Below are positions 10,629-61,310 of a stretch of DNA of 64,000 nucleotides, one piece after another (the first letter of the stretch is position 1; each line of letters opens with the position of its first letter). Source of the DNA: Candidatus Bathyarchaeota archaeon (GTDB lineage: Archaea > Thermoproteota > Bathyarchaeia > Bathyarchaeales > Bathycorpusculaceae); assembly GCA_963702095.1 (NCBI GenBank), contig OY969706.1:1792001-1856000 (forward strand). Reading direction: 5' to 3'. Position numbers and translations under genes: made by a program. A model generated the notes under the pieces. That model made no database searches, was not told where the DNA came from, and worked only from the letters and a program-made list of their open reading frames with translations.

Positions 10629-10808
10629 CAACATACTTCCACACCCACATAGCGGCTGGTTCTGCATGGAGCCATGTTGCGCGTGTGGAGAAAAATGCAC
10701 TTTCCACACCGAAACAGGCATAGAAAAACGTTGCAACCGCAAAAAGCAATTGAGTTCTCAACCATTCTTGTGGCATGCCGTAAACCGCCACCCCACATAA
10801 AGAGAGAA
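10629..10808 (-). repeat. Dispersed intergenic repeat family A, copy 1 (G/T-rich strand is -)
   Basis: Aligns with 23632-23806, 44117-44297, 56058-56238 and 61131-61310; shared CACACCGAAACAG core and CACATAAAGAGA end. Confidence 0.95.
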
Positions 10809-10878
10809 CACCAACAAAACATTTGACCTACAGCTAAATAATGGATGGGCGATGCTAAGAGAGCAGCAAACGCTTCTT

Positions 10879-13311
10879 TTACTTGCGTTTTAACATGTTC
10901 TCAAGCAACGGCTTTAGCTTAGCATTCTCCGCCTGTATCTTTTCTTTGCCCAAGGCTTTGCGCTCTACGTCGATTTCTTTTATGACTTCAGCGTAGTGGA
11001 TACCTTCTGCGGCAGAGATATATTCAACTCGGAAACGCTCTGGACTCATACCCAGCTTAACCAGCATATTCTTCAGCGCATCGGTGCGGGCTTTCATCTT
11101 GTAGTTGCCGTTGATGTAGTGGCAGTCGTAGGGCAAGTGGCATGCACCAACCAAAACCGAACCCGCCCCTAAACGCAGCGCTTCAAGCACGAAGTCTCTG
11201 GCGACCCGTCCGCTGCACATGACGCGGATTGCTCGGACGCTGGCAGGGTAGTCACATCGGCTGATACCTGCCAAATCTGCGCCGGCGTAGCTACACCAGT
11301 TACAGAGTATGGCGAGGATTTTGTCTTCCGGGTTAGTTTCTAAGGCAGCGTGGATTTGAGCCATGACTTGTGCATCGGTGAAGTGCATCTGGGTAATGGC
11401 GTGTTGTGGACATTCGGCGACGCATGTGCCGCAACCGTGGCAGCTGGCGGTGATGATGCTGGCGGGTTGCCCTGGTTCTTGGCGGATAGCACCGTAGGGG
11501 CATTTGTCAACGCAGATGCCGCATTTCTTGCATTTCTCTGAGTCCACAACGCTAATGATGGGTTCGATTTTCCATTTCGGTTTACTGATAACTGTGGCTG
11601 CACGTGAAGCAGCTCCGCTGCCCTGAGAGACACTGTAAGGAATGTCTTTGAGTCCTGCACAAGCGCCCGCATAGAAGACGCCGTCGGTTGGGGCGTCCAT
11701 GGGTTTGAGTTTGGGGTGGGCTTCCATGAAGAAGCCGTTGGAGTCACGGCTGAGGTTGAGGATGCGGGCGACTTCTTCGCTGCCTTTTTTGGGGATGGAT
11801 GCTGTGGCGAGGACGACCATGTCGGCTTCGACTTCGATGGGTTGCCCAAGCAAGCTGTCTTCGCTGTGCACAGTTAAGTTATGGGTCTTGGGATCTTCGT
11901 CTATGCGGCTTACACGTCCACGGATAAAGTTGACGCCCCTCTCCCTTGCACGGTCATAGAATTCCTCATAGCCTTTGCCAGGGCTGCGTATGTCCATGTA
12001 GAAAACGTAGACTTCCACGTCTTCTTTGTACTTCTCTTTAAGCTGCACCACGTGTTTGAGGGTGTACATGCAGCAGAAGTTGCTGCAGTAGGGGTAATGC
12101 TGCTTGTCTCGGCTGCCGACGCATTGGATGAATACGATGCGGTGGGGTTTCTGCCCGTCACTTTGCCGTATGACTTTGCCTCCGGTGGGTCCCGCCGCCA
12201 GAATCAGCCGTTCAAACTCCATGCTGGTGATGACGTTGGGGTATTTGCCGTAACCCAAAAGTGGCATGTCATAGGGCTCATAAACGTCGAAGCCTGTGGA
12301 AACGATGATGGCGCCGACTTCAATGTCTACTTCCTCGGGTTTTTGGTCGAAGTCTATGGCGTCGCGGTCTCCGCAGGCATCAGTACATTTGAAACATTCG
12401 ATGCAGTAGTCCTTGTTGATGCTGTAAATCAATGGAACCGTCTGGTCGAAGGGTACAGAAATTGCTTTCCGAGTGCCCAAGTTCATATCCCATTCGTTTG
12501 GGTACTCGATGGGGCAAGCGTCTTTGCATTCGCCGCACCCCGTACATTTTTCTGGGTTGACAAAGCGGGGGTTTTTGCGGATTTTAACTTTAAAGTTGCC
12601 AATGTAGCCCTCGCATTTGACGAGGTCGCTGTTGGCGAATATGGTGATGTTTGAGTGGCGGGCGCAATCCACCATTTTGGGGCCCTCGATGCAGATGCTG
12701 CAGTCCAGTGTGGGGAAGGTTTTGTCCAGCGCCGCCATGTGGCCGCCGATGCTCTGCGAAGTCTCAAGCATGTAAACTTTGAAGCCTTGCTCAGCTAAGT
12801 CGAGGGCGGCGTTCATGCCTGCTATGCCCCCGCCGATTATGAGTGCCTTGTTGGTGACTGGCACCTCTATGGTTTGCAGCGGCTGCATGAGGCGTACTTT
12901 GGCGACTGCCATCTTTACGGTGTCTTTGGCACGTTCCGTCGCTGCAACTGGGTCGCTTTGGTGGCACCAAGAGGCGAATTCACGGATGTTTGCCATTTCG
13001 TAGAGGAAGGGGTTTAAGCCTGCTTCGGAGACTGTGCGGCGAAAAGTGGGTTCGTGCATGCGTGGAGAGCAAGCGGCGATGACTACGCGGTTGAGTTTTT
13101 TTTGGCGGATTGCTTTGCGGATTTCTTCTTGACCCGGGTCGGCGCAGGTGTAGCGGTTTTCTTTGACGTAGACGACGTCAGGTATGGTTTTGGCGTATTC
13201 CGCAACTGCATGTACATCTACAGTTCCGGCGATGTTGAGTCCACAGTGGCATACAAAGACGCCAACACGGAGTTCTTCAGGTTTAGTTTGATTTGGATTG
13301 GGAGTGCTCAT
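10879..13311 (-). CDS. hdrA: Heterodisulfide reductase subunit A fused to an MvhD-like C-terminal domain
   Basis: GVFVCHCGLNIAG, ACSPRMHE, FAD motif GGGIAG, QCVGSRD, CSNFCCMY, ferredoxin motifs; C-terminal CNWCSYAGAD...RVMCSGRV...CHYINGN is MvhD-like. Confidence 0.95.
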   Translation of the reverse strand: MSTPNPNQTKPEELRVGVFVCHCGLNIAGTVDVHAVAEYAKTIPDVVYVKENRYTCADPGQEEIRKAIRQKKLNRVVIAACSPRMHEPTFRRTVSEAGLNPFLYEMANIREFASWCHQSDPVAATERAKDTVKMAVAKVRLMQPLQTIEVPVTNKALIIGGGIAGMNAALDLAEQGFKVYMLETSQSIGGHMAALDKTFPTLDCSICIEGPKMVDCARHSNITIFANSDLVKCEGYIGNFKVKIRKNPRFVNPEKCTGCGECKDACPIEYPNEWDMNLGTRKAISVPFDQTVPLIYSINKDYCIECFKCTDACGDRDAIDFDQKPEEVDIEVGAIIVSTGFDVYEPYDMPLLGYGKYPNVITSMEFERLILAAGPTGGKVIRQSDGQKPHRIVFIQCVGSRDKQHYPYCSNFCCMYTLKHVVQLKEKYKEDVEVYVFYMDIRSPGKGYEEFYDRARERGVNFIRGRVSRIDEDPKTHNLTVHSEDSLLGQPIEVEADMVVLATASIPKKGSEEVARILNLSRDSNGFFMEAHPKLKPMDAPTDGVFYAGACAGLKDIPYSVSQGSGAASRAATVISKPKWKIEPIISVVDSEKCKKCGICVDKCPYGAIRQEPGQPASIITASCHGCGTCVAECPQHAITQMHFTDAQVMAQIHAALETNPEDKILAILCNWCSYAGADLAGISRCDYPASVRAIRVMCSGRVARDFVLEALRLGAGSVLVGACHLPYDCHYINGNYKMKARTDALKNMLVKLGMSPERFRVEYISAAEGIHYAEVIKEIDVERKALGKEKIQAENAKLKPLLENMLKRK

Positions 13312-14243
13312 TTCTTCTTCATCTCTTCCACTTCAAAGCGGTGTGCAACCAGTTCACGTCTGGTCTTTGCTGCATGCTCCTTGAACTCTTTAACTGCATC
13401 TGTGGGGCTGGTGATGCGCTCCAAAGTTTTGTTCCATGCACCCGAGTGGATGGGGGTATGGTGAACTTTTGTGCGGTGAACTGTCAACGCTTCAGGTTGG
13501 GGGCAAACGTTTTTGCATGCGCCGCAGAAAGTGCAGGTTTGCTCGTTAACGTAAACTTTTTTGTCGTCGCCAAGCACCAGCGTGTCGGTTATGGGGCAGA
13601 CGTCAAGGCAGTCTTTGCAGCCAGGCGGACACTTGTCTTGGTCGATGTGTAGGTTGCCTTCGAAGGCTTTTTTTACTCTTATGGCGCCTGGAGGGCATTT
13701 GAATTCGCAGACGCGGCATGTGGGACAATGTTGTTTATCGATGTCTACGGTGACTTGGACGCGTTTTTGTCCCATCGGCGAAAGCGTAGATATGTCGGTG
13801 ACGGGTTTGCCGTCATAAGCCACCTTTGAGACTTTGATTAGCTGGAGTGGACAGGCGGTTTCGCATTCGACGCAGGCTTTGTCGCCTTTACGTGTGTCCA
13901 CCACTATATCCCTGATTAGTTCTGGGTAGCTGTCTTTGGATAAGATGTTTAGATCATGGCTGCCGTTGTGGGTGACGGTTATGGCGCCGTAGGGGCAGGT
14001 GACGTCGCAGATGCCGCAGAAATTGCATTTCTCCAAATCCACATCCACCTTCACCCGCTGCGCGGCATCGCCGACTTTGGGTTGTTTCTGGTGGGTGATG
14101 GCTTGTTTGGGGCAGGCATTCATGCAGATTTGGCAGCCTACGCAATGTTTGCGGTCGAGGCGCAGTTTGTAGTTTTTAACTTGCAAAACCCATTCTAACT
14201 CTAAAGCGTCTGCCGCATCTTTCTTTGTTTTCTTAAACGGCAT
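13308..14243 (-). CDS. Polyferredoxin (FwdF/MvhB-like)
   Basis: Six CxxCxxCxxxCP-type motifs (one degenerate); ATGA overlap with hdrA. Confidence 0.9.
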   Translation of the reverse strand: MPFKKTKKDAADALELEWVLQVKNYKLRLDRKHCVGCQICMNACPKQAITHQKQPKVGDAAQRVKVDVDLEKCNFCGICDVTCPYGAITVTHNGSHDLNILSKDSYPELIRDIVVDTRKGDKACVECETACPLQLIKVSKVAYDGKPVTDISTLSPMGQKRVQVTVDIDKQHCPTCRVCEFKCPPGAIRVKKAFEGNLHIDQDKCPPGCKDCLDVCPITDTLVLGDDKKVYVNEQTCTFCGACKNVCPQPEALTVHRTKVHHTPIHSGAWNKTLERITSPTDAVKEFKEHAAKTRRELVAHRFEVEEMKKK

Positions 14244-14532
14244 CTATTTTTTCACCCAATACATGGTGGAGCCAAATTCTCCAGCATATAAGCGAATTAT
14301 ATGAACTGTTTGAATGGGTCATTTATGTTATAAATATTGCTTGAAAAAAGAATGGTTCCATCATTGCAAAACTGGCAAAAACACGTCACTTTTTGTTCGT
14401 TAATACTTGGAGTTAGCAAGTAAATGCAGGGTTGAGATGGGCTTATCCGCCCAATAATCCCTAAACAGAACCGCCGTCACCCCAATGGCTTCAACAGTCG
14501 CCCCACGGAAAAGCGATAACCAAACATTACAC

Positions 14533-15342
14533 CTACACAAGCGAGGTATTCTTTTTTCTACGCATAATTACTATGATTGCAAAAAGCACTATTATAACTC
14601 CTAGTGCTGCGAACAAGCCAATTTCTGTCCAATCGACGCCGCCTTTGCTTGTAGGCACCCCAACTTCTGGCAAGTATGGGGTTGCTGTGGGGTTTTCTGG
14701 CGTTGTCGGAGTGGGTGATACTGATTCACTGCGGCCAGGTATGGTTAGAGTTTGCGTGTTGCTCCAGTCGCTTGTCTGGCCTGTGAAAACCCAGGGCCAC
14801 ATTAAAATTTGAACTGTTTGACTAGGATCATATTCTCGATGGCCATACCCGATTAATGCTTGCACTTGAAAATCAATTTGTCCACCAGGGATAATTTGGG
14901 GGCTTCTACAATCCGAAAAAGCCCCGAATGTTAATACGGTAAATGTTGAATTCGAATGTTTTGGATAAGGACTCTCCACATAATAAGTAACTACCCACTC
15001 ATTGGTAAAATGACCTTTAAAACGAACATTGTAATATAGGTCAGCCATCCAATCAGCGGTCCCCTCTTTGGTCTCTATCGCCGTGAACGGTTGATTTTTG
15101 ATTGCTAGTTCCACTGTGTAGTTCTGGACGTGGTACCCTTTGTTGGTTACACTTTGACCGGTATATGGGTCGGTTGAAGTAGTTGTGGCTACGTCGTAGG
15201 AGTGGTCGACAAACTTTGCAGTGAATTCTGGTACCGATGGCTTAGGAATCTGCTGTGCAGACGCCGTTTGGATGAGCATTAAACTGGCGACTGCCAAAAT
15301 CAGTACAAGAATTAGCGATGTGAACTTGTTTTGGTATGCCAT
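14533..15342 (-). CDS. Secreted, C-terminally membrane-anchored hypothetical protein
   Basis: Signal peptide, PKPSVPEFT, Pro/Thr linker, TM helix + RRKK. Confidence 0.8.
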   Translation of the reverse strand: MAYQNKFTSLILVLILAVASLMLIQTASAQQIPKPSVPEFTAKFVDHSYDVATTTSTDPYTGQSVTNKGYHVQNYTVELAIKNQPFTAIETKEGTADWMADLYYNVRFKGHFTNEWVVTYYVESPYPKHSNSTFTVLTFGAFSDCRSPQIIPGGQIDFQVQALIGYGHREYDPSQTVQILMWPWVFTGQTSDWSNTQTLTIPGRSESVSPTPTTPENPTATPYLPEVGVPTSKGGVDWTEIGLFAALGVIIVLFAIIVIMRRKKNTSLV

Positions 15343-15366
15343 AGGTCAGGGTGTGTTTGGTTTTGC

Positions 15367-15410
15367 TTTAAAGCGTTCTTGTATAGGTTTCTTGACTAAG
15401 TTTAGTCAAG
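15367..15410 (-). promoter_or_regulatory. Palindrome CTTGACTAA-GT-TTAGTCAAG containing the conserved motif, plus TATA box
   Basis: Perfect 9-bp inverted repeat at 15391-15410; TTTAAA at 15367-15372. Confidence 0.75.
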
Positions 15411-15930
15411 GTTTATCGACAAGGTTCTCGCAGTGGGTTCGAAAAAGCTCCTGTAGAGTATTCCAGTTTCCGGCGATGAATAGCTTGCTTTTTAAGGCGT
15501 CTATTTTTGGCAGCAGTTCAGTGAGTTGTTTAAACTGCTCTTCAGTGGGTGCAAACTTGGATTCGAAGTCCGGGCTTAAAATCGTAAACTTGGATTTACG
15601 ACCTGCCATCAGCCTGACCGCCTCAATCTCGCCGTAAGTGTAGTAGCAGCTTTTATTGCTGAGCCGCAAGAGGTCATCTAGGCGCCAGTCCTTGATTTCC
15701 TCATCAATCGACCCTTTCGGCTTCTCCTCCCCGCCTGATTGTAGGGGCGGAGGCACCCCAAACGCCGAAGTTACAACGGAAATATCCTCATGCGACTCGA
15801 AACGGCTTGATTTGCCCAAACAAACGATCGCAATCCGCTTATCAGTAAAATATAGGTCGTAACGGCTGTTGATGTCAACGGGTAAAATGACGTCTCGGAT
15901 TATTCCTATCTGTTTCTCTGCGCTTGCCAA
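15406..15930 (-). CDS. Hypothetical protein (possibly PH-like fold)
   Basis: 174-aa ORF with YDLYFTDKRI; fits gene packing. Confidence 0.65.
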   Translation of the reverse strand: MASAEKQIGIIRDVILPVDINSRYDLYFTDKRIAIVCLGKSSRFESHEDISVVTSAFGVPPPLQSGGEEKPKGSIDEEIKDWRLDDLLRLSNKSCYYTYGEIEAVRLMAGRKSKFTILSPDFESKFAPTEEQFKQLTELLPKIDALKSKLFIAGNWNTLQELFRTHCENLVDKP

Positions 15931-16069
15931 CCTTATGCCTCTACCTGCTTATTTGTTTGCGCTCTTTAAGGGCTTTACGCTGCAGTAGGATTAAAAAGAA
16001 GAATCCTATCAAAAATTTAATAGGAATTTTTTTATGGTAGGACACTCGCCTATTTAGTGGGGAACAATC

Positions 16070-16309
16070 ATGCAGACAACTGACCACAACATTGTTAAAG
16101 TAACCAGACGCGGCCAAACAACAATACCCCAAAATCTGCGCAAACGATTCAACATCAAAGAAGGGGACCGCCTAATCGTAGAAGCCACAGAAAACGGCAT
16201 ACTATTCAAACCTGTCCCCAACATCTTGGATATGGTAGGCATCGATGCAGGATACGCAACAGTTGAGCAAGTTAACAAAATGATCGATAAACTCCGAGAA
16301 GAATACTAA
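16070..16309 (+). CDS. vapB: AbrB/MazE/SpoVT-family antitoxin (VapB)
   Basis: VKVTRRGQTTIPQNLRKRFNIKEGD; directly upstream of a PIN gene. Confidence 0.9.
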   Translation: MQTTDHNIVKVTRRGQTTIPQNLRKRFNIKEGDRLIVEATENGILFKPVPNILDMVGIDAGYATVEQVNKMIDKLREEY

Positions 16310-16310
16310 C

Positions 16311-16709
16311 TTGAAAGAAGTCCTCGACACCCGCTTTTTGAGGGAATACTTGTACTCTAACCAAGACACGCCAAAACAGAAACTGGCAAGGAAACTCGAT
16401 GCACTTATAGCCACAAACGAGGGCATACTGCCAACAATAGTCCTGGCCGAAATAACCCAAATCACCTGTGCACTGCGGGGTAAAGATATGGCACATAGCC
16501 GCTGCCAAGCCCTAATCCAAAGCGGACTCCAAATCCAAGAATTAACACCTCAAATCGCCGAGCAAGCCGGATTATTCAAATGCCAATACAGCAACCTGCC
16601 AATGGGCGACTGCATAATCGCAGCAACAGCGCTGATAACTCACGCGAGGGTGCTCTCTGACGACCCCCATTTTGACGCCATCAAAGAAATAAAACGCATC
16701 TGGATATAG
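16311..16709 (+). CDS. vapC: PIN-domain toxin (VapC)
   Basis: Acidic PIN residues in VLDTRF, VLAEI, MGDCIIAATA, LSDDPHF. Confidence 0.9.
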   Translation: MKEVLDTRFLREYLYSNQDTPKQKLARKLDALIATNEGILPTIVLAEITQITCALRGKDMAHSRCQALIQSGLQIQELTPQIAEQAGLFKCQYSNLPMGDCIIAATALITHARVLSDDPHFDAIKEIKRIWI

Positions 16710-16715
16710 CACCCT

Positions 16716-18683: not shown

Positions 18684-18761
18684 TGGTGGACGAGGCGGGA
18701 TTTGAACCCGCGGCCTCTGCAATGCCAATGCAGCGTTCATACCAAGCTGGACTACTCGCCC
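18684..18761 (-). tRNA. tRNA-Ala(GGC), CCA encoded, no intron
   Basis: GGGCGAG/CTCGTCC acceptor stem with G3:U70; anticodon arm CTGCA-TTGGCAT-TGCAG; T arm GCGGG-TTCAAAT-CCCGC; ends ACCA. Confidence 0.97.
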
Positions 18762-19502: not shown

Positions 19503-19632
19503 GTTGCTTGCGGAATCCGCCTCAACCAGCCTGCAACCCAAACCAGACGCAGATGCCAAAACAGGCGCCACAGCCAAACCCACTGGAAGATGATGAGTAA
19601 GGGCGACTCCCTCTTCTTCTTAAACTATAAAA
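19503..19632 (-). repeat. Family B repeat, copy 2 (G/T-rich strand is -)
   Basis: 92 bp identical (reverse complement) to 579-670. Confidence 0.95.
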
Positions 19633-23590: not shown

Positions 23591-23631
23591 CAGCCTCTTT
23601 TTCTGAAGTGAACAACTTTTTGTTATTTGCC

Positions 23632-23806
23632 TTTTTTTCTCTTTATGTGAGGTGGCGTTTTGTGGGGTGCTCCAGGACTGTAACTGGTGGCGGCTGCTTT
23701 TTTGGGTTGCAACTGTTTTTGGCGTCTGTTTCGGTGTGGGATATCCGATTTTTTCCACATGCCATACATGGCTCCATGTTGGATTGGCCATGGTGTGGAT
23801 GTGGAG
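23632..23806 (+). repeat. Family A repeat, copy 2 (G/T-rich strand is +)
   Basis: Reverse complement aligns without gaps to 10666-10800. Confidence 0.95.
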
Positions 23807-24020
23807 CAACATACCTCCCAAAAAAACTAGTTCATGTACAAAAAAGTAACACGGAAAAAAGGTAAAACAAACAATAGTTGGTTACTTGTAAATCATGGTG
23901 TTTACAGGTTTAGAATGTTTTTCGGGCGGAGACGGGTATGAGGCTATCGGGCTTGGCTGTTGAGGGTAAGCTCTAGCAACAGGGGCTATATAGCAAAAAG
24001 CATTAAATGAAAAGGGAAAG

Positions 24021-25140: not shown

Positions 25141-25275
25141 CTTGTTTTTAGTATTAGAAGAAGGCAGAGACCGCCTTACTCATCATCTTCTCGGGGGCTT
25201 AGTGGACAGCTTCTTTTTTGGTTCCGCGTCAGGTTTGGATTGACAGCTGGTTGTGGCGAATTCCGCAAGCAGATG
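25141..25275 (+). repeat. Family B repeat, copy 3 (diverged)
   Basis: TTAGAAGAAG...CCTTACTCATCATCTTC...GCGTCAGGTTTGG...GCTGGTTGTGGCGAATTCCGCAAGCAGA aligns with copy 1. Confidence 0.9.
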
Positions 25276-35352: not shown

Positions 35353-35470
35353 TGTGGCGTGTGGAAGAAATCGCATGCCCCCAACAGACAAGAAAAAATG
35401 CAACCCAAAGACAGCCGCACCCAGCTACAGACTTCTGGCACCCCATAAACCAGCACACCACAAAAGAGGC
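35353..35470 (-). repeat. Family A repeat, partial and degenerate
   Basis: GGCGTGTGGAAGAAA...AACAGAC...TGCAACCCAAAGACAGCCGC...TGGCACCCCATAAACCAGCACACCACAAAAGAG. Confidence 0.8.
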
Positions 35471-35584
35471 AAAGAGACACTTACGATTTAGACGTTTATA
35501 GGGGGAGGGGCAGGTCTGAAAAGCAATTAAAAGAGAACGAAAGGCCGAGGGAAAGCCCAAATAAAGGGGTAGAGCCAGTCCCTC

Positions 35585-41654: not shown

Positions 41655-41785
41655 CTCCTAAAGCAGAAAACGCAATCAATTGAGTGATGCTTCAAAGAAA
41701 CATAAAGATGTGTGACTGCTCAACCACACCAACTTCGCCTGCTCTACCATTTTTGGGGCTCTTTTCCTAATTTCTAGGGTATTGC

Positions 41786-41834
41786 TTGCAATCTTGTGGC
41801 ACCTCGTAAACTGCCACACCCACATAAAGAGAAA
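41786..41834 (-). repeat. Family A repeat, terminal fragment
   Basis: TTGCAATCTTGTGGCACCTCGTAAACTGCCACACCCACATAAAGAGAAA matches the end of the full copies. Confidence 0.85.
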
Positions 41835-41892
41835 GCCGTTTTGGGGTAAGGCTTTAATGTGGAGTATAAGTTAACGTTTAACTGGTTACTCT

Positions 41893-43571: not shown

Positions 43572-43932
43572 GTTAATCCATCAGCTTGATGCCTTCTTCT
43601 GCACATACGTTTTGCTTGATAAAAGGCAAAGTCAGCCCACCCCCCGTATTTTTAAGGAAAAATAAACATTTACCCTTCTTATTTTTACCCAAAACCGCCT
43701 TTTCCCTTCACAATTTGTTGCATCAACCTGTAACCAACAACGCTTTATATCACTAAATCGGGTTAGCTGTTGTATGGAATGCAAGGGATAGCCAACAAAG
43801 TTAGGCGGGTTAGCTGCTGCGAAAGGAGAAGGCTTGCCCACCTGCTACTTTTAAGCATCTGCTTTTGTAGCACAGGGCTTGGTCCGCTTAACTCAACCTT
43901 TTTCCCCTCCCTTAATACAGTAGACAAAACGA

Positions 43933-44050
43933 TCTGCTTGCGGTTTGCTCCACAACCAACAAACAACCCGCATCCGTTGCAGAACGCAAAACACAGCCAC
44001 CTACACAACCCCTAAGAAGATGAGTAGGGAGCGCTTTGCCGCCGAATGGA
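43933..44050 (-). repeat. Family B repeat, copy 4 (diverged), adjacent to a family A copy
   Basis: TCTGCTTGCGG...CCACAACCA...CAACCC...GCAGA...GAAGATGAGTAGGGAGCG aligns with 19503-19610. Confidence 0.75.
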
Positions 44051-44116
44051 CTATGCTAGTGCCCGCCTGTATTGCGCTGACCGTTGCCGTTCACTGCTAC
44101 CCTAAGAAAACAAACT

Positions 44117-44297
44117 ATACATGCTTTCGCACACATCCCGACCGTCCCTGCATGGAACCATGTATGGCGTGTGGAGAAAAATCCCTATCCCACACCGAAA
44201 CAGACGCAGAAAACCAATGCAATCCCAAAAAACAATCGCATTCAATTGCAGTCTTGTAACACCCCATAAAACACCACACCACATAAAGAGAAAAAAA
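44117..44297 (-). repeat. Family A repeat, copy 3
   Basis: 44183-44295 is identical to 56126-56238 (113 bp). Confidence 0.97.
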
Positions 44298-54800: not shown

Positions 54801-55228
54801 CTTTTCGAGATCTGCTTATCATATATTAAGATTCATGTTGATCTACGCAACAAGTTTAACTAATTCTGACTCATCATTCCATTTTTAACACAATCTTAAC
54901 CTAAACGGGGATAATATTTAAAAAAAAAGTGGTTCCTTGCAAAGGGGCGGGCAAGTGCATAAGCATAGTCGTGTCCGCTTGCGAAGTGTCTTACTCTATA
55001 CCCTCTATTGTGGGGGTGAAAAGCGATTTTTTCACCAGTTTTGGAGGTCTCTTGAGTTTTCTTTAGCGTCTTTGCTCATTAGACGATTCATAGAAACATA
55101 ATGGATTTTAGGCAAACAGCTAACAACGAAAAGCTTGGCACAGTGCATTGACGATAGATTTTAGATGCACTTATTGGCCCGCAACTCGACAACTAAGTCA
55201 TAAACGATTAGAAAATAGCTGATTATTG

Positions 55229-55354
55229 TTATTTCTCAGATTTAACTTTTAAGAGAGCCTTCGGTTTTGGAATTTGCATTCCCCAGCTTTTCTCGAGTGC
55301 ATGTTTGCATTGTTCTGCAAAGTTATTTTCGTCGTAACTCCTTTCTGTTATCAA
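55229..55354 (-). CDS. Putative 41-aa microprotein
   Basis: AGGTGA ribosome-binding site, then TTG start; MITERSYDENNFAEQCKHALEKSWGMQIPKPKALLKVKSEK*. Confidence 0.4.
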   Translation of the reverse strand: MITERSYDENNFAEQCKHALEKSWGMQIPKPKALLKVKSEK

Positions 55355-55379
55355 TTCAATCACCTAAAGCATAGTATTT

Positions 55380-55475
55380 TTATTTGGCTAAGATCAGATA
55401 GCCTACATAGCCCATGACACAAAAGACTATACCTGTACCAATCAATCCCAATACTGCTTTAGCTGTATCACACAT
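55380..55475 (-). CDS. Putative 31-aa single-TM microprotein
   Basis: AGGTGA 8 nt upstream; MCDTAKAVLGLIGTGIVFCVMGYVGYLILAK*. Confidence 0.55.
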   Translation of the reverse strand: MCDTAKAVLGLIGTGIVFCVMGYVGYLILAK

Positions 55476-56057
55476 TTTCCATTTCACCTTTATCTGTAGC
55501 AAACCAAGACCTTGAAAGATGATATAAGCAAAGTTTCTGAAAAAACAACATATCAATCCAACAGAATATATCGAAAAGGGAAGCTGAACACGTTTTCAGC
55601 GGAATATACTTGTACAGAGTAGAAATAACAGAAGGGACGCTGAAAATGATGTTACAGCTAATTCTGCCTTAATTGAATCGGTTAGACGCATAGTTTTTGC
55701 CTCTCTTGCAAAAATGGCTTTTTAAGAATATAAGTAACGTTTCAACTCCAAGATTATGTCAATTTAAAAATGTTTCAAGTATTTCGCATACAACCTATGG
55801 GCTATAGGTTTGCCCTTAAGCGAGGGATGCATGCTACACGGGCTTTTTTGTTGGGTATCAAGGGGTGTGTTTGATGGTATGCCGCAATCAGCCGCAACCT
55901 GTTGGGTCCCTTATGACGAAAAGCTGTTTGTTTTTAAAAAAAGTACGGATTGATTATTAATCATGGAAAACCGGGGCCATAATCTGCTCCTTGAAAAAAA
56001 TTCCTGTTAGGAGGACTGTATTGCGGGGATATTAGAGGCACAACTGCAGAGGTAACC

Positions 56058-56238
56058 CAACATGCTTCCACATGCACACTATGTCGGTTTCAACATAGAG
56101 GCATGTATGGCATGTGGAGAAAAACCCCTATCCCACACCGAAACAGACGCAGAAAACCAATGCAATCCCAAAAAACAATCGCATTCAATTGCAGTCTTGT
56201 AACACCCCATAAAACACCACACCACATAAAGAGAAAAA
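56058..56238 (-). repeat. Family A repeat, copy 4
   Basis: 113 bp identical to copy 3. Confidence 0.97.
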
Positions 56239-56288
56239 GCTGGACAAATAGGCATTAAAAAAAGAAAAAAAAGAGAAAGCGGCTGATT

Positions 56289-56960
56289 TTAAACGGAGGT
56301 TGGTGGCGGTGCAGGTGAATATGCGGTTGCTGGTGGCTGGGTTGCGGTTGGCTCAGTGGGTTTAAGCTGGAAGAAAGCGATTGCTAAAAGCAGGAAACCT
56401 ATCCAGATCAGGAGATACCCGATCGCGATGACTGCTAAGAATCCGCCGATGAGTATAAGTAATCCAGCGGTTCCGAATAGGCCAGTAGTTGATTTGTTAG
56501 CGACTGTTACTAGAGAGCGCCGTAGGAAGAAAGTTGAAATTATAGCTATAATCCATGCTCCTACCCAGAGAGTTGCGAGGGCACCAATGATTGGTAACCA
56601 ATCAGAGATGTTCACGTTGTTGAAAGCGTTGGGGTCAGGGGTCATTCCTTGTAGAGTGCTCCAGTTGCCATCCCAACCTGGATATATTTGATGAAGTATT
56701 GTGGAAGCATTTGCAAAAAGAACAGTAAATGCCAAGACCGCTACGATGATTGTGCCCACAATTAAAACAATAACTGCGATGAGTGCATTGTTAAGAATTC
56801 CGCGTTCCCTAAGATAGCCGCTTAAGCCGTATAAGCCTACTAAAACAAGAATTGCGCCGACGAGGTCTATAATGCCGAAGTAGTTGATTACGGGGAAGAC
56901 TCCTATGAAAAGCAAGATTGCGCCTATGCCACCCAATGTTTTACTTGATTCAAGATTCAT
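56289..56960 (-). CDS. DUF996 membrane protein
   Basis: KTLGGIGAIL, LVGLYGLS, LFGTAGL..LIG..L. Confidence 0.88.
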   Translation of the reverse strand: MNLESSKTLGGIGAILLFIGVFPVINYFGIIDLVGAILVLVGLYGLSGYLRERGILNNALIAVIVLIVGTIIVAVLAFTVLFANASTILHQIYPGWDGNWSTLQGMTPDPNAFNNVNISDWLPIIGALATLWVGAWIIAIISTFFLRRSLVTVANKSTTGLFGTAGLLILIGGFLAVIAIGYLLIWIGFLLLAIAFFQLKPTEPTATQPPATAYSPAPPPTSV

Positions 56961-57064
56961 TTGTTTTCCTCTAATTTTTGGAAGAAGAACTAAGAATAAA
57001 AGCTTTTTCTTAGCTTATGAGCGCTTGGGGCAAAATCAACATAACACCAACCAAAAAACCCAAA

Positions 57065-57397
57065 TTAGGAGGTTTCGGCTTCGCCGCTTTCAAGTTGACC
57101 CTGGAGGATACGGTAGTAGGTTTGCAGATAGGTTTTGCCATCGGCAGTTATCGTGTACACTTTGCGGGCGCGTCCGTCTTTTTGCTGTTTCTTGCTCTCC
57201 ACAAACCCCTTCTCCTCAAGCATATTTAGGGTAGGGTAGAGGGCGCCGTGGCGCAGTTTGATGTTGAAGTCGGTTTCAACCTGCTTTTTTATCTTGTAAC
57301 CCCATGTGGGTTGAGCTTGGATGATGCGGAGCAATTGGATATCGAGTAGATTTCTGACTATGTGTTGTACAATTTCTTTTTTGTAGTTTTCAGACAT
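57065..57397 (-). CDS. PadR-family regulator
   Basis: PTWGYKI...GALYPTL..LEEKGFV...RARKVYTIT..G. Confidence 0.92.
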   Translation of the reverse strand: MSENYKKEIVQHIVRNLLDIQLLRIIQAQPTWGYKIKKQVETDFNIKLRHGALYPTLNMLEEKGFVESKKQQKDGRARKVYTITADGKTYLQTYYRILQGQLESGEAETS

Positions 57398-57558
57398 GCA
57401 TTGTTACCTTGAGGGGGTTGTTAATGTATGGTTTGATGTTTGGATTTATTTAGCTTTATGTTAACTCTTGAGGTTGGTGGTATGCCGAATTATGTTTTGG
57501 TATGCTTGGGTTATGTATCAAGCTTTATATTCGCGTGTATTGTTACTCTGTAATTAAG

Positions 57559-57609
57559 ATATGTCCGAAGAAGGACATATTGTATACAAGTCGAACAGAA
57601 GAACTGTTC
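57559..57609. promoter_or_regulatory. Three adjacent inverted repeats between divergent padR genes
   Basis: ATATGTCC-GAAGAA-GGACATAT; TTGTATACAA; GAACAG-AAGAA-CTGTTC. Confidence 0.6.
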
Positions 57610-57637
57610 AACAAAAATACAAACGGGGAAGAAAAAA

Positions 57638-58042
57638 ATGTTCAAACCAAGCTCACAAAAAGAGGTCTCAACCAAACTCATGAAAGGACTACTCGACATG
57701 ATTATCCTACAATTCCTCAGCAGCGAACCCATGCACGGATATCAAATCATCACCAAAATCCGTAAAAACTTCGGCGTATACTTCGGACCAAGCACCATCT
57801 ACCCGCTCCTTGGTACACTAGAAAAGAAAGGCTTTGTCGCCAGCACATGGAACATGAACTTCGAGCGCCCAAGAAAAGTTTACAGTCTAACCAAAGACGG
57901 CCAAAGCATGCTTAACTTCACTGGAGAATCACTCAACCTTATTTGCCGAAAAATCACCATCGTAAACCCGGAATCAACCTCACCGACCGTAGGCATCATA
58001 ACATCAAAAAACAGAAACGACCTAACCCTCATCGTACCCTAA
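57638..58042 (+). CDS. PadR-family regulator
   Basis: KGLLDMIIL..L..EPMHGYQII...STIYPLL..LEKKG...RPRKVYSLT. Confidence 0.92.
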   Translation: MFKPSSQKEVSTKLMKGLLDMIILQFLSSEPMHGYQIITKIRKNFGVYFGPSTIYPLLGTLEKKGFVASTWNMNFERPRKVYSLTKDGQSMLNFTGESLNLICRKITIVNPESTSPTVGIITSKNRNDLTLIVP

Positions 58043-58218
58043 AGCGGCAAGCCTTTTTTTGAAGCTTGTCAATTTTCTGATTCATAAGGAGCATCAATCT
58101 TACAAGATCTATGCAAGCTCTAAACGGCACCTTCTATATTTTTAGGCATTTATCAGCGTTTTAAAAATCAGTTCTTAAATATGGCACTCATCATCTTTAT
58201 TGGCACTAGGTTGAAGCA

Positions 58219-59934
58219 TTGAAACAGCAAAACAGCGGCGATAATCGCGATTTAACGGAGCAAATTCTCGATTTTTCTACACATATCGCTGGGCAAGCCA
58301 AAATAGCGGCGGTTGCCTTGGTTGACAGTTATGCTGTTAAACCCTCAGATGAGCGGGCAATCCACGCCGTCATGGTTATTATCCATGATTTTCAACCCAG
58401 ACTGATGAGTTACCTAAAACGCGTAAGAAACAAAACCTTGTTCGTTTTCGCCGTTGACCAATGGGTTTTTGAGCGGGACGTTGACCGGGGATTGCTGGGT
58501 GATGCCATCGCGAGCAAACTCGTTTTTCCCTACATTGCGCTCAAAGGTGACGCTTATTTGCGTGAGGAAGAAGTTGCGTTAAAGAAGCGTCTGGTTTCTG
58601 AGTTACTTGAGAACTTAGTTATAAACTTCCCAGAGTTGGCGTCAAGCATTCAAATTCTGCCACAATACTTCATGTACGAGGTATTCTCTAACCGCGTCCG
58701 AGTTTTTCCGTTGTTGGCTTATGATTTGATCGAGTTAAACGGCAGTTTGGCGCAGAAAGAAAGCCAATCCCTTGCCAGCTACAAAATCGCTCTCCAGCAG
58801 CTTGAAGCCGAAGAAAAAGTGAGAATGAAAGACGAATATGTTGTCGTCACCAAGAAGTTTATAGCAAAGTGCCAAAATCCTAGACTGCGATTCATCAACC
58901 TCTCGAAAAATGCGCCCAGAACCCTTTTTACCTCGCTTTTTGGTGTCATCCCTCAACTGATGAACATTGTCTCCCAAAACGCGGAGGAGTTTTTGCGGAC
59001 TCAGAAAATAAATTGGGTTACGTTCCCAAATCATGCGGTTAACTTTATTGACCCGCAGAAGTACGTATTTTTCCCAACTTCGGAAGGGCTGGTTTCACTG
59101 TCGGACAAAATAGACATCAAAGGGTACACGCAGAGGATGCTGCTTAAAGGAGAAAACGTCGACGTGGATGTTGAACCCATCGGCGGTGTATTAAACGACG
59201 TGTACTTAATCAACGCTTACGGAGCTAACAGCGATACGAAGGTTTTGGTTAAACGCTTTAAAGATTGGTCTGGGTTTAAGTGGTTTCCCCTTACGCTTTG
59301 GTCGTTTGGGGCACGTTCCTTTGCAGTTGCGGGGCAGGCACGGCTGGCTAAGGAGATTGCGGCAAGCGAGTTTCTACGAAGCCAAGGATTCAATGTGCCA
59401 AAGATTTTGCATGTGAGTAACGCGGAACGCATAGTTTTCATGGAGTACATCGAAGGAGAAGGCTTAAACCAAGCTATCAAACGTTATTCGACCGCTTTGA
59501 ACGGAGAAGTTGCTTCTGGCGTCTTGGGAGCGGTTGAAGGATTCGGGGAAATCCTAGCGCGTGTCCACGGGTACAATGTCGCTCTGGGAGACACAAAACC
59601 TGATAATGTGCTCGTAAAACCTGATGGCACCCTCTACCTTATCGATTTTGAGCAGGCACTTCGGGGCGGCGACAAAGCATGGGACATAGCGGTTTTCCTC
59701 TATTACTGTGGACATTACCTGCAACCGTTTGAAAGCACCGTCAAAGCCGAATCCATCGCTGTTGCATTCATTGAGGGGTACCTGAGGGCAGGAGGAACCT
59801 TGGAGAACATTCACAAGGCTGCTTTGCCCAAGTACACGCGGGTGTTTAGCATTTTTACTATGCCTCCAGTTATGAGTGCAATTTCTAACGCATGCCGAAA
59901 AGCAGAATTACCCTATGTAGACCCTAAGGTCTAG
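58219..59934 (+). CDS. Protein-kinase-like (RIO/Bud32/Kdo-type) domain fused to a degenerate nucleotidyltransferase-like N-terminus
   Basis: IGGVLNDVY, VLVKRF, FMEYIEG, LGDTKPDN, LIDFEQ. Confidence 0.8.
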   Translation: MKQQNSGDNRDLTEQILDFSTHIAGQAKIAAVALVDSYAVKPSDERAIHAVMVIIHDFQPRLMSYLKRVRNKTLFVFAVDQWVFERDVDRGLLGDAIASKLVFPYIALKGDAYLREEEVALKKRLVSELLENLVINFPELASSIQILPQYFMYEVFSNRVRVFPLLAYDLIELNGSLAQKESQSLASYKIALQQLEAEEKVRMKDEYVVVTKKFIAKCQNPRLRFINLSKNAPRTLFTSLFGVIPQLMNIVSQNAEEFLRTQKINWVTFPNHAVNFIDPQKYVFFPTSEGLVSLSDKIDIKGYTQRMLLKGENVDVDVEPIGGVLNDVYLINAYGANSDTKVLVKRFKDWSGFKWFPLTLWSFGARSFAVAGQARLAKEIAASEFLRSQGFNVPKILHVSNAERIVFMEYIEGEGLNQAIKRYSTALNGEVASGVLGAVEGFGEILARVHGYNVALGDTKPDNVLVKPDGTLYLIDFEQALRGGDKAWDIAVFLYYCGHYLQPFESTVKAESIAVAFIEGYLRAGGTLENIHKAALPKYTRVFSIFTMPPVMSAISNACRKAELPYVDPKV

Positions 59935-60069
59935 TTTTTGCTGTTGATTTGTTGCTATTTGTTTGTGTTAGATTTTTTGCCTGCTTTTTTAGTAAGTTCA
60001 AGTACAACTTAATGCCTCTGCTTTTTCACAGTTCTGTTTTTATTTAGTTGTTGCCTAAGGCTCCGCGCC

Positions 60070-60212
60070 TTTTTTATTTTGTTTTTCTAGTGTTAGATGA
60101 AGGAGAAACGCTCCTTACTCTTCTTCTTCCTGTGGACTTTGTGAGCGATTGCGTTTTTGTGTCTGCGTCTGGGTTGGGTTGCAGGCTGGTTGTGAACAAA
60201 TCCTCAAGCAGA
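60070..60212 (+). repeat. Family B repeat, copy 5
   Basis: TTTTTCTAGTGTTAGA...CCTTACTC...TCTGCGTCTGGGTTGGGTTGCAGGCTGGTTG...CAAGCAGA; similarity to copy 1 extends back to TTCTGTTTTT near 60032. Confidence 0.93.
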
Positions 60213-60274
60213 ATTCGGTTGCTAGTAGAGATAAGCTCCAAAGATTTTTTACCTAAAAAAGCATCTTATAATAT

Positions 60275-60547
60275 GTGGATTTTATGACCCAATTCTACTA
60301 CAAAGGCCTCTACAAAGTCAAAGTCGTAACCGAAAGCGAAGGCTACTGGATAGTGGAAGCCCAAGAACAATTTGAAGATGTTGAGGACGACAAAAAAGTC
60401 ACAGTTAAAACTGGCGAGCAACGCATCGTGCAACCCAGTGAACTGCACAAGAAAAAAGTGCTTGCCCCACCTGTTCCAGAGCACGTGTATGAGCGTAAGC
60501 TCGAGAAAAAGGTCAAACACATTGTAGAAGAAGCAGAAAAGAAATAA
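60275..60547 (+). CDS. Small hypothetical protein (SH3-like beta pattern); probable start 60284
   Basis: Beta-strand pattern and codon usage typical of expressed genes. Confidence 0.7.
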   Translation: MDFMTQFYYKGLYKVKVVTESEGYWIVEAQEQFEDVEDDKKVTVKTGEQRIVQPSELHKKKVLAPPVPEHVYERKLEKKVKHIVEEAEKK

Positions 60548-60623
60548 GCGTTCTGTGCCCAGTGGTTGTTGCTACCCGCATGTAACCACATAGACCTTAA
60601 AGAGCCTTCAACAACTGTTTGGG

Positions 60624-61058
60624 ATGGTGAATTTTTTGGGTTTAGGACAGAAACTCTTTGAAGGCAAAGGCAAAAGCGGATCAAGCTTCATCAAAGATGT
60701 GAGCATGGAGGGCGTGCGGCAGATTTATTCGTGGTCGGCTCAAGTTAAAGGCGCAGGAAGAGCGGCGGGCGTTGACTGCTTCATCACGGTGACAGCTAAG
60801 GGCATGACGCCGCCAAAAGGGCTTGGAGTAGCAAAGGACCAGGGTATCTTTAGGACTTCAACCGGCGATATGGGAACCGTAAAAGGCTTTGACGTTGCAA
60901 AGATGGTGGCGGGCAAAAACATGAGTGTTGGACTCTGGACTTTCATGACAATGTCGGACAGTCTTGCTTGGCTCAACGACACGATAGCCATCGTGACTTT
61001 TGAGGGCTTGGACCCGATGTGGCAGGAGTTTAAGATGGAAATTTGGGAGTGGACTTAG
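60624..61058 (+). CDS. Hypothetical protein
   Basis: 144-aa ORF ending LAWLN...EIWEW. Confidence 0.7.
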   Translation: MVNFLGLGQKLFEGKGKSGSSFIKDVSMEGVRQIYSWSAQVKGAGRAAGVDCFITVTAKGMTPPKGLGVAKDQGIFRTSTGDMGTVKGFDVAKMVAGKNMSVGLWTFMTMSDSLAWLNDTIAIVTFEGLDPMWQEFKMEIWEWT

Positions 61059-61130
61059 CGGGTTAACCCATTTTTCTCTTATTTTTTGTTTAATTAAAAA
61101 AATTTTTCGAGTGGGGTTGCTGTAGTTCGT

Positions 61131-61310
61131 TTGTCTCTTTTTGTGGGTGTGGTGGTTTGTGGGGTGCCACAAGACGGCAACTGAGGACGGTTGTGTTTTG
61201 GGGTTGCAATGGTTTTTGGCGTCTGTTTCGGTGTGGCATAACTGTTTTTTTCCATACCCCCTGCATGTCTTCATGTTGGCTGGGTCAGGTGTGGATGTGG
61301 GGGTATGTTG
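61131..61310 (+). repeat. Family A repeat, copy 5 (G/T-rich strand is +)
   Basis: GGGTTGCAATGGTTTTTGGCGTCTGTTTCGGTGTGG core is nearly identical to copy 2. Confidence 0.95.

What the first reader, a model, noticed from the sequence alone, without database searches (positions are those of the whole stretch)
10629..61310. Family A: ~180-bp dispersed intergenic element with structure conserved on one strand
Seen: full copies at 10629-10808, 23632-23806, 44117-44297, 56058-56238 and 61131-61310; partial copies at 35353-35470 and 41786-41834. All are intergenic. One strand is G/T-rich and starts with a T-rich TCTCTTTATGTG-like end. On that strand, homologous stems survive sequence change: TGTGGCA/TGCCACA (41.8k), TGTGGTG/TGCCACA (61k), TGTGGTG/TGTTACA (44k); GCGAT/ATTGC (44k), GCGGC/GTTGC (23k), CAAT/GTTG (10k); AGACGgCAA/TTGgCGTCT (61k), AGACtGCA/TGCGTCT (44k); GTGTGG paired with CCACAC, CCACAT or CCATAC; and CATG-N4-CATG. 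Many variants are G-U pairs on this strand but A-C mismatches on the other. In 5 of 7 copies the G/T strand begins about 40-115 nt after the stop codon of a co-oriented gene. No terminal inverted repeats or target duplications are visible. Inference: a structured ncRNA/3'-UTR element, or a REP-like mobile unit acting as a single strand. I do not recognise the family. Caveat: G/T-rich sequence forms wobble stems easily.
Basis: partly seen in the sequence, partly recalled or inferred. Interest (0 to 1): 0.9.

Follow-up and report, generated by a model that had tools for sequence, protein, structure and literature searches.

The report
Dispersed archaeal DNA repeat, not strand-specific RNA
Family A is a real, roughly 200-360-base repeat scattered more than a hundred times between the genes of a Bathyarchaeia archaeon, and it looks like a poorly understood mobile or recombining DNA element, not an RNA whose fold is preserved on one strand.

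Summary
The repeat family is real. The host genome holds 116-126 copies. The host is an archaeon: an exact 20-mer from the element hits only Bathyarchaeia/Bathyarchaeota MAGs. The element was found in 19 of 119 other species of the genus and in 0 of 16 genomes from other families of the order.

There is no Rfam match, no terminal inverted repeat and no target duplication.

The claim of structure conserved on one strand fails:
- Covariation equals shuffles.
- RNAalifold on cross-species alignments gives about -2 kcal/mol.
- Both strands fold equally well against shuffles.
- The G-U excess is a general C>T/A>G bias that also holds in unpaired columns.
- Co-orientation with the upstream gene is 65 of 116.

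Copies are old, about 20% from consensus. They lose parts by deletion and swap segments with nearby copies. They also sit at most synteny breaks against the closest species.

No known transposase or reverse transcriptase goes with the family.

Best reading: a TIR-less, TSD-less interspersed DNA repeat whose mobilising enzyme is unknown.

The parts
10628..10810 (-). Family A copy, core only (short form)
   Evidence: nhmmer profile positions 4-186 of 244 and 6-187 of 382. It lies between a PQQ beta-propeller ORF (7776-10610) and an FlpD/Fer4 ORF (10879-13311). Homology with the closest species G007 starts at window 10787.
23632..23835 (+). Family A copy, core with the 'CAACATACC...AAAAAA' 3' variant
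   Evidence: Profile positions 3-204. It lies between convergent PGI-like and inositol-1-phosphate-synthase-like ORFs. G007 has a copy at the same place that lacks profile positions 20-58. In several more distant species the two genes lie 6-18 bp apart.
35355..35471 (-). Family A fragment (5' part only)
   Evidence: Profile positions 6-135. G007 has unrelated DNA of similar length at this colinear junction.
41785..41835 (-). Family A fragment (first ~50 nt)
   Evidence: Profile positions 5-55. It holds the exact 20-mer used for the collection scans. It sits at a G000/G007 synteny break, 41719|41814.
44026..44297 (-). Family A copy, long form (core plus part of the tail module)
   Evidence: Profile positions 3-243 of 244 and 5-280 of 382. 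The tail part, 43932-44030, matches several G007 loci. There is no element at the colinear G007 site. The first 120 aligned columns are 93-100% identical to the 56k copy, then identity falls to 75, 50 and 33%.
56050..56239 (-). Family A copy, core only (short form)
   Evidence: Profile positions 3-193. The G007 block starts at window 56233, and G007 keeps only profile positions 134-211 there.
61128..61353 (+). Family A copy, core plus a short 3' extension
   Evidence: Profile positions 4-225. G007 has a full copy at the same place. Identity there is 65.4% for the element (136 of 208), 92.0% for the adjacent coding gene, 80.7% at third codon positions and 63.1% for the spacer.

Best explanation
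Family A is an interspersed, non-coding DNA repeat of one Bathyarchaeia genus. It is a non-autonomous mobile element in the broad sense.

SHOWN.
- It has a sharply conserved 5' end: a T run followed by TCTCTTTATGTGGGTGTGGCGG.
- It has a core of about 200 nt made of conserved blocks that hold short inverted repeats (TGTGGC/GCCACA, GTGTGG/CCACAC, ACATGG/CCATGT), separated by free-running segments.
- Its 3' modules are interchangeable and bring long forms to about 360 nt.
- It lies between genes in either orientation, with no terminal inverted repeats and no target duplications.
- Resident copies lose parts by deletion and exchange segments with other copies, mostly nearby ones.
- Copies coincide with most breaks of gene order against the closest species.
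- Its hairpin potential is ordinary Watson-Crick palindromy, present equally on both strands.

INFERRED.
- It spread by a copy-making mechanism whose enzyme is neither in this genome nor of a known type.
- The conserved blocks are the cis sites that this enzyme, or some other DNA-binding protein, recognises.
- It is not a fold kept for an RNA of the G/T strand.
For: - Copy number and spread: 116-126 copies in a 2.94-Mb single-contig genome.
- Patchy, genus-limited distribution: found in 19 of 119 other species, with many copies in about a dozen, and in 0 of 16 genomes from other families of the order. The exact 20-mer occurs only in Bathyarchaeia-type MAGs.
- Position and orientation: all three intergenic classes are used (convergent 33, divergent 27, tandem 56), both orientations occur (65 vs 51), and there is no replichore bias. 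Flanking genes are functionally unrelated.
- Presence or absence at matched loci: the 44k and 35k loci have no copy in G007. The 23k gene pair is 6-18 bp apart in several more distant species, against 430 bp here.
- Decay: copies at the same sites in G007 lack profile positions 20-58 or 3-133. Of 126 hits, 109 keep the 5' end and 17 lack it, and 13 of the 109 stop before position 140.
- Age: median 20% from consensus.
- Sequence exchange: 9 of 4095 pairs are mosaic, and 6 of those 9 lie within 50 kb of each other, against 3.3% of all pairs (p=1e-7). The 44k and 56k copies are also mosaic.
- Rearrangement: 5 of 6 G000/G007 block ends in the window lie at copies. By a stricter automatic rule it is 4 of 6, p=0.003. 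A 3.3-kb segment between two inverted, near-identical copies is inverted in G007.
- Symmetric palindromy: RNAalifold z is -4.4 on the G/T strand and -5.8 on the C/A strand against column shuffles.
Against: - No mobilising enzyme was found, and no clean empty or filled pair with identical flanks was seen. The closest genome is only about 86% identical. Movement is therefore inferred, not shown.
- Copies at the same locus in two species keep family-conserved columns at 84-92% identity while variable columns sit at 34-40%. The locus partner ranks only 70th, 74th and 11th of 91 in similarity. Simple neutral decay of a dead element does not predict this. It needs gene conversion, re-insertion at the same spots, or selection on resident copies.
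- G007 is a 150-contig MAG. Some 'breaks' are contig ends, or could be assembly joins at repeats.
- Against a complete but more distant genome, only 2 of 4 broad break intervals hold a copy.
- Only a limited set of transposase families was tested, and the Y2 search was uninformative because its control did not ring.
Confidence: 0.55

Rival explanations
1. Host-used double-stranded DNA module. The conserved blocks with short inverted repeats would be binding sites for a dimeric DNA-binding protein, such as a regulator, a chromatin protein or a site-specific recombinase. Selection would keep them in place at each locus.
For: - In three same-locus pairs across species, the 74 family-conserved columns stay 84-92% identical while the 65 variable columns are at 34-40%.
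- The 5' block is identical in many species whose genes are only about 75% identical.
- Palindromy is symmetric on both strands.
- The genome carries 7 tyrosine-recombinase matches, 5 above the Pfam cut-off.
- Copies sit at synteny breaks and flank an inverted segment.
Against: - The element is present in only 19 of 119 species of the genus.
- Same-locus copies carry large deletions.
- There is no link to gene function or orientation.
- The same identity pattern (conserved columns 92.5%, variable 43.7%) holds for random non-allelic pairs. Gene conversion explains that without any host function.
Confidence: 0.2
2. One reading: a structured non-coding RNA or 3'-UTR element transcribed from the G/T-rich strand, with its fold kept by compensatory and wobble changes.
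For: - Conserved short stems exist, and their loops vary.
- When the upstream gene is co-oriented, the element starts a median of 55 nt after its stop.
- A few copies show a full swap, GCAAC/GTTGC to GCTTG/CAAGC (read).
- RNAalifold on 91 same-genome copies beats column shuffles on the G/T strand (z=-4.4).
Against: - Covariation is not above shuffles.
- The cross-species consensus energy is -2.2 and -1.6 kcal/mol.
- The C/A strand does as well or better: alifold z=-5.8, and single-copy z-scores are -1.0 to -2.7 against -0.1 to -2.9 for the G/T strand.
- MFE folds differ between copies.
- The G-U excess equals the background substitution bias.
- Co-orientation is 65 of 116.
- The G/T strand carries several runs of five or more T. 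From general knowledge of archaeal termination, these would stop transcription inside the element.
- There is no Rfam family.
Confidence: 0.1
3. A single-strand-mobilised element of the IS200/IS605 or REP/RAYT kind: a palindrome-associated element moved by a Y1 HUH transposase that has since been lost.
For: - It has no TIR and no TSD.
- Short hairpin-forming repeats lie near the 5' end and, in medium and long forms, near the 3' end.
- The substitution spectrum is strand-asymmetric and deamination-like: C>T is 2x G>A, and A>G is 3x T>C.
- Y1 transposases circulate in the genus, in 42 of 119 genomes.
Against: - The host has no Y1 and no TnpB.
- Only 5 of 19 element-bearing genomes have Y1, against 42 of 119 overall.
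- None of 14 loci around Y1 genes holds element-like sequence at E<=1.
- There is no conserved target word beyond the element's own T run.
- Orientation shows no skew along the chromosome.
Confidence: 0.07
4. A retroposon-like (SINE-like) element, copied through an RNA of the C/A strand that ends in the A-rich tail, with incomplete copying giving ragged far ends.
For: - One end is constant in 109 of 126 hits while the other end is ragged.
- On the C/A strand the constant end reads ...CATAAAGAGAAAAA.
- The C/A strand lacks T runs.
Against: - There is no reverse transcriptase in the host, nor in any of the 19 other element-bearing genomes. RVT_1 is in 17 of 119 genomes of the genus, none of them element-bearing.
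- There are no target duplications.
- Much of the raggedness is due to distinct 3' subfamilies and to a tail module that also occurs alone.
Confidence: 0.03

Closest known systems
Prokaryotic MITEs (for example the Sulfolobus SM elements and others listed in the review PMC10969869; I read passages only)
   Same: Small (about 200-360 nt), non-coding, multi-copy, mostly intergenic, taxon-restricted, variable in length and truncated in some copies.
   Different: MITEs are defined by terminal inverted repeats of at least 10-15 bp and target duplications of 2-10 bp (passage in PMC11602168). Both were tested here and not found. No parent insertion sequence with shared ends exists in the genome.
REP/BIME elements with RAYT, and IS200/IS605-derived palindrome-associated elements (features recalled from general knowledge)
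   Same: No TIR, no TSD, hairpin-forming repeats, intergenic, high copy number.
   Different: - REPs are 20-40 nt, whereas this element is 200 nt or more.
- No Y1 enzyme is in the host or linked to the element in the genus.
- The structure shows no strand specificity.
ERIC / Correia-type enterobacterial and neisserial repeats (recalled from general knowledge)
   Same: Repeats of 100-200 nt that sit beside genes, can be co-transcribed, recombine and mark rearrangements.
   Different: Those are imperfect palindromes with inverted ends, and Correia elements have TA duplications. Family A has neither, and it is archaeal.
Rfam RNA families
   Same: Nothing.
   Different: In the window, only a tRNA reaches a gathering score. 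The best permissive hits on a copy have E of 1.1-4.9 at 10-16 bits, against gathering scores of 55-70.

Membership tests
MITE (sensu stricto) | Terminal inverted repeats of at least 10-15 bp | tested here: not met
   Local alignment of the 5' 55 nt against the reverse complement of the last 150 nt in 10 long copies gave scores of 14-26. Shuffled means were 17-22 and shuffled maxima 28-38.
MITE (sensu stricto) | Target-site duplications of 2-10 bp flanking each copy | tested here: not met
   In 96 copies the longest shared word between the two flanks has the same distribution as with swapped partners. Duplications of 2-4 bp cannot be excluded by this test.
MITE (sensu stricto) | A parent insertion sequence with the same ends | tested here: not met
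   A self-comparison of the genome finds only 2-3-copy repeats of 0.4-2.9 kb. Their largest ORFs are not transposases. DDE_Tnp_1 gave 0 matches and rve gave 2 sub-threshold matches.
MITE (sensu stricto) | Small, non-coding, multi-copy, mainly intergenic | tested here: met
   116-126 copies of about 50-380 nt. The window copies lie between ORFs. No conserved ORF follows the element.
IS200/IS605-derived or REP/RAYT elements | A Y1 HUH transposase (TnpA/RAYT) in the genome or co-occurring with the element | tested here: not met
   PF01797 gave 0 matches in the host. It is present in 5 of 19 element-bearing genomes, against 42 of 119 in the genus.
IS200/IS605-derived or REP/RAYT elements | Ends shared with a resident IS200/IS605 copy | tested here: not met
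   The element profile found nothing at E<=1 in 14 loci of 3.3-5.4 kb around Y1 genes from 12 genomes.
IS200/IS605-derived or REP/RAYT elements | Insertion next to a fixed 4-5-nt target word; orientation tied to replication | tested here: inconclusive
   The base profile upstream of the T run is near background. Cumulative orientation shows no replichore pattern, but the replication origins are unknown.
Structured RNA family (Rfam-type) | Match to a curated covariance model | tested here: not met
Structured RNA family (Rfam-type) | Base pairs supported by covariation | tested here: not met
   (one helix was mis-registered there). RNAalifold gave -2.17 and -1.61 kcal/mol.
Structured RNA family (Rfam-type) | A discrete transcript | not testable with these tools
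   No RNA run was listed for this organism.
SINE-like retroposon | A reverse transcriptase available in the cell | tested here: not met
   PF00078 gave 0 matches in the host and in 0 of the 19 other element-bearing genomes.
IS91 / rolling-circle elements | A Y2 HUH transposase | tested here: inconclusive
   PF04986 gave 0 matches, but the control genomes did not ring either.

The most novel reading that the evidence does not exclude
Family A, and the second ~135-nt family in the same genome, could represent an undescribed way of spreading and maintaining short DNA elements in archaea. In this reading there are no inverted ends, no target duplication, and none of the tested transposase or reverse-transcriptase families in the genomes that carry it. 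The conserved blocks would be kept intact in resident copies across species, and the copies would act as the points where gene order is reshuffled. That would point to a dedicated, still unknown recombinase or binding protein, possibly one of the tyrosine recombinases, which uses the blocks as its sites.
Probability: 0.15. Interest if true: 0.7.

Novelty: new variant of a known kind. Interest (0 to 1): 0.4.

Why it matters
Bathyarchaeia are abundant and uncultured, and their mobile DNA is almost undescribed. Two full-text searches found nothing on repeats in this group: 'Bathyarchaeota'+'MITE' and 'Bathyarchaeia'+'transposable elements'. The large prokaryotic MITE census (PMC11602168; I read passages only) does not mention the group, and by its stated TIR-based method it could not have found an element like this.

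A repeat of 100 or more copies with no inverted ends and no duplications shows that TIR-based surveys miss part of the archaeal repeat content. In practice such repeats break MAG assemblies and mark rearrangement points, so they matter for genome reconstruction and synteny analysis in this group.

The case is also a worked warning. In G/T-rich repeats, apparent wobble-preserving 'compensation' can come wholly from composition and a strand-biased substitution spectrum.

Tried and rejected
- Expression: no RNA holder was listed for the stretch. Laying four wetland DNA runs gave only short contigs of relatives, and none bridged or skipped an element.
- Small ORF behind the long form: 17 downstream ORFs were inspected and are unrelated to one another.
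- Coding potential of the core: single-base indels between copies break any reading frame (alignments). This was not tested formally.
- Mutual information with APC: the top pairs are linked subfamily variants, not base pairs.
- Scan for stacked pairings: about a hundred alternative 'helices' with 75% or more pairing, mostly G-U. The method is uninformative in this composition.
- Autonomous partner beside 5'-only or 3'-only fragments in six foreign loci: only ordinary ORFs were found.
- Viral, plasmid and phage origin: 0 viral contigs, no phage match and no plasmid match.
- Earlier notes of this scan: nothing, either by place or by sequence.
- Strain-level empty sites: the best foreign loci are 85% identical or less over gene-length stretches, with one short stretch at 92%, so exact ends and the target could not be read.
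- The first count of structure pairs had helix 4 shifted by one column. It was repeated correctly.
- A terminal-inverted-repeat idea raised by eye from the tail module was tested and dropped.

Full report
WHAT IS THERE.
Aligning the five full copies as given showed that they lie in mixed orientation. Once put on the G/T-rich strand they align along about 200 nt, and the two partial copies align with the 5' part.

I laid the whole genome: 2.94 Mb, one contig, 46.8% G+C. BLAST with the five copies found 111 loci, 86 of them 170 nt or longer. An nhmmer profile of 244 positions found 116 hits, and a longer profile of 382 positions found 126.

The flanking ORFs carry unrelated Pfam domains: PQQ propeller, FlpD/ferredoxin, PGI, inositol-phosphate synthase, beta-CASP, an HTH regulator and DUF996. 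The copies are therefore intergenic and not tied to one kind of gene.

THE HOST.
An exact 20-mer from the conserved 5' end, scanned over one genome per prokaryotic species, hit 19 loci. All are in MAGs titled Bathyarchaeia, Bathyarchaeota or uncultured archaeon. The element is therefore archaeal.

By BLAST it is found in 7 of 24 sampled species of the host's genus and in 0 of 16 genomes from 11 other families of the order. Over the whole genus it is in 19 of 119 other species at E<=1e-5, about a dozen of them with many copies. It is absent from the viral contigs and from the phage and plasmid collections. It occurs on six metagenome contigs.

ANATOMY.
- On the G/T strand the element begins with a run of about six T's, then TCTCTTTATGTGGGTGTGGCGG. 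The base profile returns to background about eight bases upstream of TCTTTATG.
- The core is a chain of well-kept blocks separated by free-running segments.
- Several blocks form short inverted repeats: TGTGGC/GCCACA about 12 nt apart, GTGTGG/CCACAC 15 nt apart, and ACATGG/CCATGT 2 nt apart.
- The 3' side comes in several versions. In the long form it continues through a tail to about position 360.
- The tail also occurs on its own at five places, so long forms may be composites of two elements.
- Of 126 hits, 109 keep the 5' end and 17 lack it.

1. Covariation. On 24 copies (with one helix mis-registered), on 106 copies helix by helix and on 49 copies from many species, paired fractions and double changes are the same as when 3' partners are shuffled. 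In one search the covariation score is 0.133 against 0.124+-0.006, with 33 of 500 shuffles as high.
2. Consensus folding of the cross-species alignments gives only 8 and 5 pairs, at -2.17 and -1.61 kcal/mol.
3. Strand comparison. For five copies, z-scores against dinucleotide shuffles are -2.86, -0.07, -0.85, -1.17 and -2.66 on the G/T strand. On the other strand they are -2.65, -1.86, -2.22, -1.04 and -1.69. The minimum-energy folds differ from copy to copy.
4. On 91 same-genome copies RNAalifold beats 40 column shuffles on both strands, with z=-4.4 for G/T and z=-5.8 for C/A. The palindromic content is real but symmetric.
5. The excess of G-U over A-C reflects a general bias. Relative to the consensus, C>T is about twice G>A both in paired columns (0.116 vs 0.061) and in unpaired ones (0.148 vs 0.073). 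A>G is three times T>C in unpaired columns.
6. A scan for stacked pairings found about a hundred alternative 'helices', most made of TGTG-type wobble pairs.
7. There is no Rfam family.

The stems exist as conserved sequence. Nothing shows that they are kept as a fold, or on one strand.

POSITION AND ORIENTATION.
I used crude ORF calls, with ORFs that arise inside the element removed. The upstream gene is co-oriented for 65 of 116 copies (p=0.23). Copies lie in convergent (33), divergent (27) and tandem (56) intergenic regions, roughly in proportion to the length of those regions (p=0.06). Orientation shows no trend along the chromosome. Copies start closer to gene ends (median 55 nt) than to gene starts (median 133 nt), as expected if insertions near promoters are lost.

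MOBILITY FEATURES.
- There is no target duplication and no terminal inverted repeat, even in long forms.
- The genome has no high-copy insertion sequence, and its few multi-copy genes are not transposases.
- Pfam searches of the six-frame genome gave 0 matches for TnpB, Y1_Tnp, RVT_1, IS110, resolvase and DDE_Tnp_1.
- Two sub-threshold rve matches and seven tyrosine-recombinase matches were found. The Y2 search was uninformative.
- Across the genus, Y1 is in 42 of 119 genomes but in only 5 of the 19 that carry the element. RVT_1 is in 17 of 119 and in none of the 19.
- No element-like sequence lies within 14 loci around Y1 genes.

HISTORY.
Copies are a median 20% from the consensus. The nearest copy is a median 81% identical, and 10 of 91 have a partner at 95% or more.

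Against the closest species G007 (genes 83-90% identical), the window copies compare as follows:
- The 23k, 56k and 61k copies have a counterpart at the same place. Two of the three counterparts have large deletions.
- The 44k and 35k loci hold unrelated DNA in G007.
- In several more distant species the genes that flank the 23k copy lie only 6-18 bp apart.

At the 61k locus the element is 65% identical between the two species. The neighbouring gene is 92% identical, its third codon positions 81%, and the spacer 63%.

In three same-locus pairs, family-conserved columns are 89, 84 and 92% identical and variable columns 34, 37 and 40%. The locus partner ranks 70th, 74th and 11th among 91 copies. 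Random non-allelic pairs give the same figures: 92.5% and 43.7%. Point mutation since the species split cannot explain this degree of difference in the variable columns, so copies must have been overwritten or replaced.

Direct signs of such exchange exist. The 44k and 56k copies are 93-100% identical over the first 120 aligned columns and then fall to 75, 50 and 33%. Nine of 4095 pairs are mosaic in this way, and six of those nine lie within 50 kb of each other, against 3.3% of all pairs.

REARRANGEMENTS.
The blocks of G007 that match the window end at 10787, 23649|23967, 41719|41814, 48596|48717, 55761|56233 and 61299|62126. Five of these six places are Family A copies. A stricter automatic rule counts four of six, p=0.003. 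The two copies that lie inside colinear blocks are the two that G007 lacks.

Elsewhere, a 3.3-kb segment carrying a MoxR-type ATPase and a VWA protein lies between two inverted, near-identical copies and has the opposite orientation in G007.

Caveats apply. G007 is a 150-contig MAG. In a third region several block ends are simply contig ends. Against a complete but more distant genome, only two of four broad break intervals hold a copy.

READING.
The element behaves like a family of selfish or semi-selfish dispersed DNA repeats. It is patchy within one genus, lies between genes in any orientation, varies in length, loses parts by deletion, and takes part in gene conversion and rearrangement. 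It is not a MITE in the strict sense, because it has no TIR and no TSD (definitions from a passage of PMC11602168). It is not linked to any tested transposase family.

Two things remain unexplained: which enzyme made the copies, and why the conserved blocks stay intact in resident copies across species. Gene conversion among 100 or more copies, with selection only on the source copies, can account for the second. Host use of the blocks as protein-binding sites cannot be excluded, and I give that reading 0.2.

The strand-asymmetric, deamination-like substitution spectrum is a real oddity. It hints that the G/T strand spends time unpaired, during transcription or copying. I could not take this further.

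LITERATURE.
- 'Bathyarchaeota'+'MITE' returned 10 papers, none on repeats of this group judging from the search listing.
- 'Bathyarchaeia'+'transposable elements' returned 3 papers, none relevant judging from the listing.
- I read passages only of PMC11602168 (MITE definition, TIR-based census, no mention of Bathyarchaeia) and of PMC10969869 (list of archaeal MITEs).
- Supplementary files of these papers, which list the archaeal MITE sequences, could not be seen. They might in principle contain this family, although the census required TIRs.

Noticed in passing
window 553-683, 19505-19632 (-), 25142-25273, 60077-60213: A second dispersed repeat family of about 135 nt, also G/T-rich on one strand. 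It has 114 BLAST hits in the host genome (median 76% identity) and many hits in G007. It is not usually adjacent to Family A (median distance 9.6 kb).
   Followed up: partly
window 43932-44059, and host genome positions about 1145153, 1402201, 1482573, 2011714, 2332167 (outside the window): The 'tail' module of long Family A copies (…CAGTGAACAGCAATGAACAGCGCAATGCAAGCGGGCACTAGCATGGCCCA… ending with CCTATAAGCAATTTTGGCAAACAAAAAGC, a TATA-like motif) also occurs alone at five sites. It may therefore be a separate element that often sits beside the core.
   Followed up: partly
L123:868-1079 (-) and L123:4372-4582 (+) (host genome 1628868 and 1632372, outside the window): Two inverted, near-identical copies flank a 3.3-kb segment carrying a MoxR-type AAA ATPase and a VWA protein. 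The segment is inverted in the closest species G007. This looks like a repeat-mediated inversion.
   Followed up: partly
all Family A copies (host genome): The substitution spectrum is strand-asymmetric relative to the consensus. On the G/T strand, C>T is about 2x G>A and A>G about 3x T>C, in paired and unpaired columns alike. The pattern is deamination-like and its cause is unexplained.
   Followed up: partly
host genome 1899089-1899166 (+) and 1933697-1933807 (+), outside the window: A 5' fragment (profile positions 5-83) and a 3' fragment (93-204) lie on the same strand 34.6 kb apart. They might be one copy split by a large insertion or rearrangement.
   Followed up: no
window 23591-24020: The spacer between the convergent PGI-like and inositol-phosphate-synthase-like genes is 430 bp here, made of the element plus 185 nt of unique DNA. 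It is 6-18 bp in several species of the genus and 160-1450 bp of unrelated DNA in others. This is a fast-turnover spot.
   Followed up: partly
window 18687-18761 (-): A tRNA gene, the only Rfam match in the window at gathering score.
   Followed up: no
host genome (L116-L122): Seven tyrosine-recombinase (Phage_integrase) matches, several in ORFs of about 500 aa. Two of them lie next to 1-kb segments present in two copies. They may be integrated elements and were not examined.
   Followed up: no
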